Shown piece by piece: positions 63,001 to 64,000 of a DNA stretch of 64,000 bases. The stretch is taken from assembly GCF_000027125.1 (NCBI RefSeq), contig NC_017626.1; one strand, written 5' to 3'. The position numbers are program-made. The stretch comes from Escherichia coli 042. GTDB lineage: Bacteria; Pseudomonadota; Gammaproteobacteria; Enterobacterales; Enterobacteriaceae. The number at the start of each line of letters is the position of its first letter. Position 1 is the first letter of the stretch.

Positions 63001-64000
63001 CCTGCCAGATGATATGGTCCGTCCCCGGATTTTTCGCAGACAAATGCTCGTTGCGTTCAATGAATAAAGGGGGTATCCAGTTTGGATCGTCGGGATAAAG
63101 TGATGACGGAAAAGCGATAAATGCCTTAAGGTCATTTTTATTAATTACTTTTTCAATTTTAATCATCAGCAGATCGCATTCCATAGTTCTGTGGGTAACA
63201 AATAATTAACGGTGACAAACAGGTTGCAACAGCAACGAACGGCACCTTAATAATCAACCCAATGAATACAAACGACGAATAAATAGTATTTATTAATGAT
63301 TACGATAAGGTCAGAGACTACACAGAAGCGCCACAATGCCTTTTGTCGATTTAAGGCGACCGGACAAGGCTTCTTCTTAATACATTCATAAATTAAATAT
63401 CATTCACAATAAAAACAAAAAACTCAAACTCATTATTTAAATCAATGTTCATTTTCACACTGATGAAAATACTATCTCATTTATCTTTTATGCCTATATA
63501 ATCCACCGCATTATTGTCATTTTATTTTTGATATCCAATTTTTTCGTGGTGTATATGTCTAATAAAATCTTTACGCATTCCCTACCTATGCGCTATGCCG
63601 ATTTTCCAACGCTGGTTGATGCTTTGGACTACGCCGCTCTGAGTAGCGCCGGAATGAATTTTTATGACAGACGTTGCCAACTTGAAGATCAACTGGAATA
63701 TCAGACGTTAAAAGCGCGTGCCGAAGCTGGTGCGAAGCGGTTGTTATCGCTGAACCTGAAAAAAGGCGATCGCGTGGCACTGATTGCCGAAACAAGTAGC
63801 GAGTTCGTAGAGGCTTTTTTTGCCTGCCAGTATGCCGGCTTAGTCGCCGTCCCGTTGGCGATTCCAATGGGCGTTGGTCAGCGGGATTCCTGGAGCGCCA
63901 AATTGCAGGGTTTACTGGCAAGTTGCCAGCCCGCAGCCATTATCACTGGTGATGAGTGGTTGCCACTGGTCAATGCCGCGACGCATGACAACCCCGAATT

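What the first reader, a model, noticed from the sequence alone, without database searches (positions are those of the whole stretch)
63555..64000. Unlisted partial gene at the window edge: fatty acyl-AMP ligase-like
A + strand ORF begins at 63555 and continues past the window end, so it is missing from the six-frame track. The translation looks like the N-terminus of an AMP-binding ligase, which often starts a lipid or polyketide accessory cluster.
Basis: seen in the sequence. Interest (0 to 1): 0.3.

Follow-up and report, generated by a model that had tools for sequence, protein, structure and literature searches.

The report
Start of E. coli fatty acyl-AMP ligase
The open reading frame cut off at the window edge is the first 148 codons of a well-studied E. 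coli enzyme (EcFAAL/AasR, crystal structure 3PBK) that loads a fatty acid onto a dedicated carrier protein to start sphingolipid synthesis, so the finding is correct but ordinary.

Summary
A + strand frame is open from 63441 to the window end. It has an ATG at 63555 and 148 complete codons, while the other five frames carry 5-10 stops each.

The 148 residues are identical to residues 3-150 of PDB 3PBK, the E. coli fatty acyl-adenylate ligase. They match Pfam AMP-binding and the NCBIfam FAAL subfamily model.

The window is E. coli chromosome (glc operon, then yghO). A public contig (L006) is identical to the last 11,959 bases of the window and continues past it. There the ORF runs 573 codons to a stop, identical to 3PBK throughout, with adenylation motifs A3-A10.

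Downstream in L006 lie an epimerase-family reductase, an acyl carrier protein and serine palmitoyltransferase. This is the published aasR-cerR-acpR-spt operon, with yghO as the proposed N-acyltransferase.

Published work shows the enzyme makes acyl-AMP, loads its cognate ACP rather than CoA, and with ACP and Spt yields 3-oxo-sphinganine. The operon is in about 77% of complete E. coli genomes. K-12 lost it at an IS5 element.

Verdict: a real, intact and already known gene. Interest is low.

The parts
63555..64000 (+). 5' part (codons 1-148 plus 2 nt) of the fatty acyl-AMP ligase gene (EcFAAL = AasR); the full gene is 573 codons and would end at about window-equivalent 65276
   Evidence: Open frame. 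100% identical to 3PBK. Pfam and NCBIfam matches. Full-length continuation in the identical contig L006.
63693..63710 (+). Adenylation core motif A1-like, LEYQTL (codons 47-52)
   Evidence: Regex on the translated sequence. The motif definition comes from established knowledge of ANL/adenylation domains.
63831..63857 (+). Adenylation core motif A2-like, YAGLVAVPL (codons 93-101)
   Evidence: Motifs A3-A10 all lie beyond the window (window-equivalent 64092-65198).
63792..63794 (+). Codon T80 (= T83 in the numbering of PMC8460268, offset +3), a residue at the entrance of the FAAL-specific 4'-phosphopantetheine pocket
   Evidence: Sequence. The mutants T83F/R abolish transfer to holo-ACP but not adenylation (PMC8460268, read).
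63864..63866 (+). Codon P104 (= P107 in PMC8460268), the second pocket-entrance residue
   Evidence: Sequence. P107F/R mutants are described in PMC8460268.
63546..63590 (+). Start-codon region: GTG 63546, GTG 63549, ATG 63555 (preferred), ATG 63588 (PGAP); a weak GGTG lies at 63548-63551
63185..63554 (.). 370-bp AT-rich (32% GC) divergent intergenic region between yghO and the ligase gene. It contains a perfect TATAAT at 63497-63502 with a poor -35. No Rfam match and no significant hairpin.
   Evidence: Promoter function is inferred only.
62042..63184 (-). yghO, divergently transcribed; the literature assigns it as the N-acyltransferase (aca/cerS) of the same pathway
   Evidence: Annotation. 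PMC9386255 Fig. 9 legend. No Pfam or NCBIfam hit here. The homologue in L009 has a faint GNAT hit.

Best explanation
The ORF is the intact 5' end of the E. coli gene for the fatty acyl-AMP ligase EcFAAL, also called AasR, the specialised acyl-ACP synthetase of the sphingolipid pathway. The enzyme adenylates a free long-chain fatty acid with ATP; C12 and C14 adenylates are seen in the crystal. A FAAL-specific insertion and an occluded CoA pocket prevent it from making acyl-CoA. Instead it passes the acyl group to the 4'-phosphopantetheine arm of the dedicated carrier protein AcpR, encoded two genes downstream. Acyl-AcpR is the preferred substrate of the serine palmitoyltransferase encoded next, which condenses it with L-serine to give 3-oxo-sphinganine. 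The epimerase-family reductase (CerR) and YghO (the N-acyltransferase) are proposed to finish dihydroceramide. Shown here: the identity of the gene, its intactness in an identical contig, and the operon content and its conservation. Shown in the literature for the same or a 99.5% identical protein: adenylation, ACP loading, and 3-oxo-sphinganine formation on co-expression. Inferred: the later steps in E. coli, export by the neighbouring LptF/G-like genes, and native expression.
For: The 148 aa are 100% identical to 3PBK residues 3-150. L006 matches window 52042-64000 with 0 mismatches in 11,959 nt and extends 9,184 nt further. The full ORF is 573 aa, identical to 3PBK residues 3-575 apart from the initiator Met, which 3PBK shows as Leu. 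It scores 877.9 bits on NF006624, above the 600 cutoff. Motifs A1-A2 lie in the window and A3-A10 beyond it. Downstream genes are an Epimerase-family SDR, a PP-binding ACP, and an Spt that scores 599 bits on the NF047599 equivalog, above the 500 cutoff. The same locus in BL21(DE3) differs at only 3 of 573 residues, none of them in the first 148. PMC9386255 names the BL21 genes aasR (ECD_02851), epi, acpR, spt and aca = yghO, and shows that AasREc + AcpREc + SPTEc give 3-oxo-sphinganine. PMC8460268 shows EcFAAL loading C12 onto its own ACP, and that T83 and P107 mutants block transfer. The operon order is kept in Hafnia and Serratia. It is also kept in metagenomic homologues at 43-49% identity: 3 of 4 have all four genes and 4 of 4 have the reductase.
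Against: Only 26% of the gene is in the window, and the rest is inferred from an identical public contig, not from the window's own genome. BL21(DE3) with empty vectors, which carries the chromosomal operon, shows no 3-oxo-sphinganine-like lipid (PMC9386255). Native expression and the native end product in E. coli are therefore undemonstrated. Orthology to Caulobacter CC_1165 was taken from the literature and not recomputed here. The gene is IS-disrupted in some other strains.
Confidence: 0.93

Rival explanations
1. It is an ordinary FadD-type fatty acyl-CoA synthetase that feeds beta-oxidation or phospholipid synthesis.
For: It has the same AMP-binding superfamily domain, and weak hits to many acyl-CoA ligase models. 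Some database records name orthologues 'acyl-CoA synthetase'.
Against: The best NCBIfam model is by far the FAAL subfamily: 190 bits for the fragment against 41 or less for any CoA ligase model, and 878 against 354 for the full length. The protein is identical to 3PBK, which is described as unable to use CoA (PMC8460268, PMC11837247). The AasR family acylates AcpR but not CoA (PMC9386255). The context is ACP plus Spt, not fad genes.
Confidence: 0.02
2. It is the loading enzyme of a polyketide or non-ribosomal lipopeptide cluster.
For: Many FAALs do this (PMC11837247). Homologues at 30-36% identity are embedded in multi-kilodalton PKS/NRPS proteins.
Against: No PKS or NRPS gene lies in the 9 kb downstream in L006, or in the Hafnia and Serratia islands. 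The closest stand-alone homologues (43-49% identity) keep the reductase-ACP-Spt neighbours.
Confidence: 0.02
3. In the window's own genome the gene is a pseudogene, interrupted just beyond the window edge.
For: IS insertions hit this gene in other strains. IS1 sits after window-equivalent 63629. ISVsa5 sits at window-equivalent 64011-64019 in strain E272, only 11 bases past the window end. K-12 lost the whole operon at an IS5.
Against: The only contig identical to the window (0 of 11,959 mismatches) has the intact gene. E272 differs from the window at 257 positions over 13.4 kb. About 4,067 of 5,426 complete genomes carry the four-gene operon in one place covering at least 80% of it.
Confidence: 0.04
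4. It is a chance open frame, not a gene.
For: None beyond the fact that it is truncated.
Against: Zero stops in 148 codons against 5-10 in the other frames. Exact identity to a crystallised protein. Conservation across genera.
Confidence: 0

Closest known systems
EcFAAL, E. coli fatty acyl-adenylate ligase (PDB 3PBK; UniProt A0A0H2VDD9)
   Same: Identical sequence over all 148 residues in the window, and over 572 of 573 residues in the identical contig L006; the initiator Met is Leu in 3PBK. The pocket residues T83 and P107 are present as T80 and P104.
   Different: Nothing detectable. Only the numbering differs: +2 in the PDB chain, +3 in the UniProt entry that starts at GTG 63546.
AasR (AasREc, ECD_02851 of E. 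coli BL21(DE3); AasRCc, CC_1165 of Caulobacter crescentus), the specialised acyl-ACP synthetase of sphingolipid synthesis (PMC9386255)
   Same: Same locus and operon as BL21(DE3). There are 3 substitutions in 573 residues (P161S, V219A, D534A), none in the window part. The gene order is also the same: aasR, reductase, acpR, spt.
   Different: According to the paper, AasREc is narrower than AasRCc and does not serve the Caulobacter AcpR. Sequence similarity to CC_1165 was not measured here.
Mycobacterial FAALs (FadD32, FadD28, FadD23) and Legionella LpFAAL (3KXW)
   Same: Same family and fold. Full-length E-values are 1e-73 to 1e-42. They share the chemistry of acyl-AMP formation and transfer to a carrier protein instead of CoA.
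   Different: Those enzymes hand the acyl chain to polyketide synthases or NRPS modules. This one hands it to a stand-alone ACP used by a PLP-dependent serine palmitoyltransferase.

Membership tests
ANL superfamily (Pfam PF00501 AMP-binding) | Significant match to the AMP-binding domain model above the gathering score | tested here: met
   The window fragment scores 56.9 bits against a cutoff of 29.9. The full length in L001/L006 scores 202.8 bits.
ANL superfamily (Pfam PF00501 AMP-binding) | Core motifs A1-A10, including the P-loop A3 and the A10 lysine | tested here: met
   A1 and A2 lie inside the window. A3 (YTSGSTRFPRG), A5, A7, A8 and A10 (PRTSSGK) are seen only in the identical contig L006, beyond the window.
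Fatty acyl-AMP ligase (FAAL; NCBIfam NF006624) | Whole-protein score above the curated cutoff of the FAAL subfamily model | tested here: met
   877.9 bits against a cutoff of 600 for the 573-aa protein of L006. The 148-aa fragment alone gives 190 bits, below the cutoff because it is truncated, but this is by far its best family.
Fatty acyl-AMP ligase (FAAL; NCBIfam NF006624) | FAAL-specific insertion and occluded CoA pocket, with an alternative 4'-PPant pocket | tested here: met
   Met by sequence identity to the crystal structure 3PBK in which these features were described (PMC8460268). Pocket residues T80 and P104 are in the window. No structure was computed here.
Fatty acyl-AMP ligase (FAAL; NCBIfam NF006624) | Forms acyl-AMP, does not form acyl-CoA, and transfers the acyl group to holo-ACP | not testable with these tools
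   This is biochemistry, reported for the identical protein in PMC8460268 and summarised in PMC11837247.
AasR (specialised acyl-ACP synthetase of proteobacterial sphingolipid synthesis) | Encoded next to a dedicated ACP gene followed by spt, with the epimerase-family reductase | tested here: met
   Seen in L006, L001 and L005, with Pfam and NCBIfam support including the Spt equivalog above its cutoff. Conserved in Hafnia and Serratia and in homologues at 43-49% identity.
AasR (specialised acyl-ACP synthetase of proteobacterial sphingolipid synthesis) | Orthology to Caulobacter CC_1165 | not tested
   The CC_1165 sequence was not retrieved. The assignment of ECD_02851 as aasR is taken from PMC9386255.
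AasR (specialised acyl-ACP synthetase of proteobacterial sphingolipid synthesis) | Acylates the cognate AcpR and supports 3-oxo-sphinganine formation with Spt | not testable with these tools
   Reported for the BL21(DE3) protein, which differs at 3 of 573 residues (PMC9386255; identity).

The most novel reading that the evidence does not exclude
Most wild E. coli (about three quarters of complete genomes) may carry a complete pathway, normally silent in the laboratory. It would run from this ligase through AcpR, Spt, CerR and YghO, and continue through the adjacent second LptF/LptG pair, YtfJ, the YghQ flippase-like protein and YghR/S/T. It would make a sphingolipid and deliver it to the outer membrane. 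This lipid class has not been demonstrated in native E. coli, and K-12 cannot make it because of an IS5-associated deletion. The genes are known; the native product, its inducing condition and its role in the gut are not.
Probability: 0.35. Interest if true: 0.5.

Novelty: already known. Interest (0 to 1): 0.08.

Why it matters
For the scan, this closes the item. The edge ORF is a real gene with a solved structure and a published function, so nothing new is hidden behind the window boundary.

It is a reminder that K-12-centred annotation misses an island present in most E. coli. It also shows that automated annotation disagrees on this gene's start (562, 573 or 576 aa).

The only open biology is whether and when wild E. 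coli expresses the operon, and what lipid results.

Tried and rejected
- **IS1 junction count.** I tried to count genomes with the IS1 insertion using a junction query. The per-record limit on IS1 pieces made the count unusable.
- **IS1 strains as B-lineage.** I guessed that the IS1-bearing strains were of the BL21/B lineage. BL21(DE3) has an intact gene with no IS1, so that guess was wrong.
- **Intergenic RNA or hairpin.** An imperfect inverted repeat at about 63324-63377 folds no better than shuffles (z -1.2). Rfam found nothing. The sigma-70 consensus scan found no + strand promoter.
- **YghO fold.** AlphaFold2 on a 4-sequence alignment gave pLDDT 53. That is too poor for a fold search, so none was run.
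- **E272 as the window's source.** Its operon is about 99.9% identical and it has an IS 11 bases past the window end. It was rejected because it has 257 mismatches over 13.4 kb upstream.
- **Original structure paper.** Zhang et al. 2011 (PMID 21185305, PMC3040979) is not held. Its content is cited only through PMC8460268 and PMC11837247.

Full report
**Observation**

Bases 63555-64000 on the + strand translate without a stop into 148 residues, MSNKIFTHSLPMRYADFPTLV...THDNPE.
- The frame is open from just after TAA 63438-63440 to the window end. The other five frames of the same stretch have 5-10 stops each.
- GC by codon position is 58/44/53%, and the upstream 370-bp intergenic region is 32% GC.
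- The ORF listing omits ORFs that run off the source, which is why the ORF is not listed.

**Identity**

- The fragment matches Pfam AMP-binding (E 2e-15, above the gathering score).
- Among NCBIfam models it matches the fatty acyl-AMP ligase subfamily NF006624 far better than any other: 190 bits against 51 or less.
- Against the PDB it is 100% identical to residues 3-150 of 3PBK, 'Fatty Acyl-Adenylate Ligase' of E. coli.

**Genomic setting**

The last 700 bases of the window match 4,162 of 5,426 complete E. coli genomes, always under a gene annotated 'fatty acyl-AMP ligase'. In strain JP538 and in BL21(DE3) the neighbourhood reads as follows:
- sslE, glcABGFED, glcC, then yghO on the minus strand.
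- On the plus strand: FAAL, an NAD-dependent epimerase/dehydratase-family protein, an acyl carrier protein, and spt.
- On the minus strand: lptG-like, lptF-like, ytfJ-like, a hypothetical gene, yghQ, yghR, yghS.
- Then yghT and pitB.

In K-12 MG1655 an IS5 (insH9) sits between yghO and a shortened yghQ, and everything in between is absent.

**What lies beyond the edge**

I looked up contigs that encode exactly the window's YghO protein.
- Contig ABZFZX010000002.1 of GCA_050852795.1 (L006) is identical to window 52042-64000 at all 11,959 positions. The best complete genome reaches only 98.8% over that stretch.
- L006 continues 9,184 bases past the window end. There the ORF runs 573 codons to a stop.
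- The protein is identical to 3PBK residues 3-575, except that the initiator Met is Leu in 3PBK. It scores 877.9 bits on NF006624, above the cutoff of 600.
- Motifs A1 (LEYQTL) and A2 (YAGLVAVPL) are inside the window. A3 (YTSGSTRFPRG), A5 (YGLAE), A7 (WLDTGDL), A8 and A10 (PRTSSGK) lie beyond it.

The downstream genes have these matches:
- Epimerase/NmrA-type SDR domains for the reductase.
- PP-binding for the ACP.
- The NCBIfam serine palmitoyltransferase equivalog NF047599 at 599 bits, above its cutoff of 500.
- LptF_LptG domains for the two permease-like genes.

**Start codon**

Annotations disagree: ATG 63588 (PGAP, 562 aa), ATG 63555 (573 aa) and GTG 63546 (576 aa).
- Orthologues from Citrobacter, Hafnia, Shimwellia, Pseudocitrobacter and Serratia all begin MS... 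at the position of ATG 63555, and they conserve THSLPMRYADF.
- In Hafnia an in-frame stop lies 24 nt upstream of that ATG.
- Only a weak GGTG lies just upstream, at 63548-63551.

**Function from the literature**

PMC8460268 (eLife 2021) uses EcFAAL (3PBK) as the reference FAAL.
- It shows that the canonical CoA pocket is blocked and that an alternative pocket accepts the 4'-phosphopantetheine arm.
- It shows that EcFAAL transfers 14C-lauric acid to its own holo-ACP.
- T83F/R, P107F/R and T252F/R mutants abolish transfer but not adenylation. T83 and P107 correspond to T80 and P104 of the window fragment.

PMC11837247 lists 3PBK with C12 and C14 adenylates bound.

PMC9386255 (Front Microbiol 2022) deals with the same locus in BL21(DE3).
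- It names the genes aasR (ECD_02851), epi (ECD_02852), acpR (ECD_02853), spt (ECD_02854) and aca = yghO (ECD_02850).
- It shows that AasREc, AcpREc and SPTEc together give 3-oxo-sphinganine in vivo.
- It shows that these Spts prefer acyl-AcpR over acyl-CoA.

The BL21 protein differs from the L006 protein at three residues, none of them in the first 148.

PMC11324152 describes the Caulobacter cluster as aasR-cerR-acpR-spt, with cerS in a separate transcription unit. That cluster also has second copies of LptF and LptG and a flippase. The E. coli island mirrors this layout.

**Independent support from synteny**

- The whole island recurs in Hafnia and Serratia in different chromosomal neighbourhoods.
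- An exhaustive profile-free search gave stand-alone homologues at 43-49% identity. Of the four I looked up, all have the reductase gene next door. Three also have ACP followed by an aminotransferase class I/II gene. One has a divergent yghO-like gene with a faint GNAT hit, and one has an LptF/G pair.
- More distant homologues (30-36% identity) are domains of giant PKS/NRPS proteins. This is the other known use of FAALs, but it is not the context here.

**Mechanism**

1. Fatty acid + ATP gives acyl-AMP. This is shown by the crystal adenylates and by TLC assays in the literature.
2. The acyl group is transferred to holo-AcpR rather than to CoA (shown in the literature).
3. Spt condenses acyl-AcpR with serine to give 3-oxo-sphinganine (shown on co-expression).
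4. N-acylation by YghO and reduction by the SDR give dihydroceramide. This is inferred for E. coli from the Caulobacter genetics.
5. The LptF/G-like, YghQ and related genes export or modify the lipid. This is inferred from gene content only.

Native expression is doubtful under laboratory conditions. BL21(DE3) with empty vectors, or with Spt alone, shows no such lipid. The AT-rich divergent promoter region has only a lone TATAAT at 63497-63502.

**Population notes**

- The 4,085-bp four-gene operon is in 4,168 of 5,426 complete genomes, and 4,067 of them have it in one place covering at least 80%.
- The gene is a recurrent IS target. IS1 is inserted after window-equivalent 63629 in NZ_AP027902.1.
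- ISVsa5 is inserted with a 9-bp duplication at window-equivalent 64011-64019 in strain E272.
- E272 is not the window's source. It is 98.0% identical upstream and 99.9% identical downstream of the insertion.

**Verdict**

The feature is an already known gene with a solved structure and a published role, so interest is low.

The residual open question is whether wild E. coli actually makes a sphingolipid from this island. It belongs to the island as a whole, not to this edge ORF.

Noticed in passing
window 63629/63630 (equivalent position in L003 6332): In strain 2018-11-1BCC (NZ_AP027902.1), and apparently a few others, an IS1 with an 8-9 bp target duplication (CTTTGGAC) sits inside the ligase gene at codon 25. 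PGAP then calls a shortened 540-aa protein from ATG 63654.
   Followed up: partly
just beyond the window: equivalent of 64011-64019 (L013 13466-14794): Strain E272 has an ISVsa5 (IS10-like) insertion with a 9-bp duplication that splits the ligase gene 11 bases past where this window ends. E272 is 98.0% identical to the window upstream of the insertion but 99.9% identical to L006 downstream, which suggests a recombination mosaic around this gene.
   Followed up: yes
window 62042-63184 (-), yghO: YghO has no Pfam or NCBIfam match even at E = 10, although the literature treats it as the pathway's N-acyltransferase (bacterial ceramide synthase). A 52%-identical metagenomic homologue carries only a faint GNAT hit. 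An AlphaFold2 model from 4 sequences was too poor (pLDDT 53) to test the fold.
   Followed up: partly
window 63546-63590: Public annotations use three different starts for this gene: GTG 63546 (576 aa), ATG 63555 (573 aa) and ATG 63588 (562 aa, current RefSeq PGAP in several genomes). Cross-genus conservation favours ATG 63555.
   Followed up: yes
window 52000-64000: This 12-kb stretch is at best 98.8% identical to any of 5,426 complete E. coli genomes, but 100% identical to a draft contig (GCA_050852795.1). The window therefore comes from a lineage that the complete-genome set does not represent well at this locus.
   Followed up: partly
L002 10147-11341 (K-12 MG1655 3130146-3131340): In K-12 an IS5 (insH9) directly abuts yghO and a truncated yghQ (1,068 bp instead of 1,350 bp). 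It replaces the ligase, reductase, ACP, spt, lptG-like, lptF-like, ytfJ-like and hypothetical genes.
   Followed up: yes
L007 7388-8143 (Hafnia): In Hafnia the same island sits in a different chromosomal neighbourhood. It has a Sfp-type 4'-phosphopantetheinyl transferase gene beside the yghO homologue, a possible dedicated activator of the island's ACP. No such gene is adjacent in E. coli.
   Followed up: no
window 63586-63921 (-): A 111-codon antisense ORF with a TTG start lies entirely inside the ligase coding region. It is most likely a by-product of the sense frame's codon bias and was not examined.
   Followed up: no
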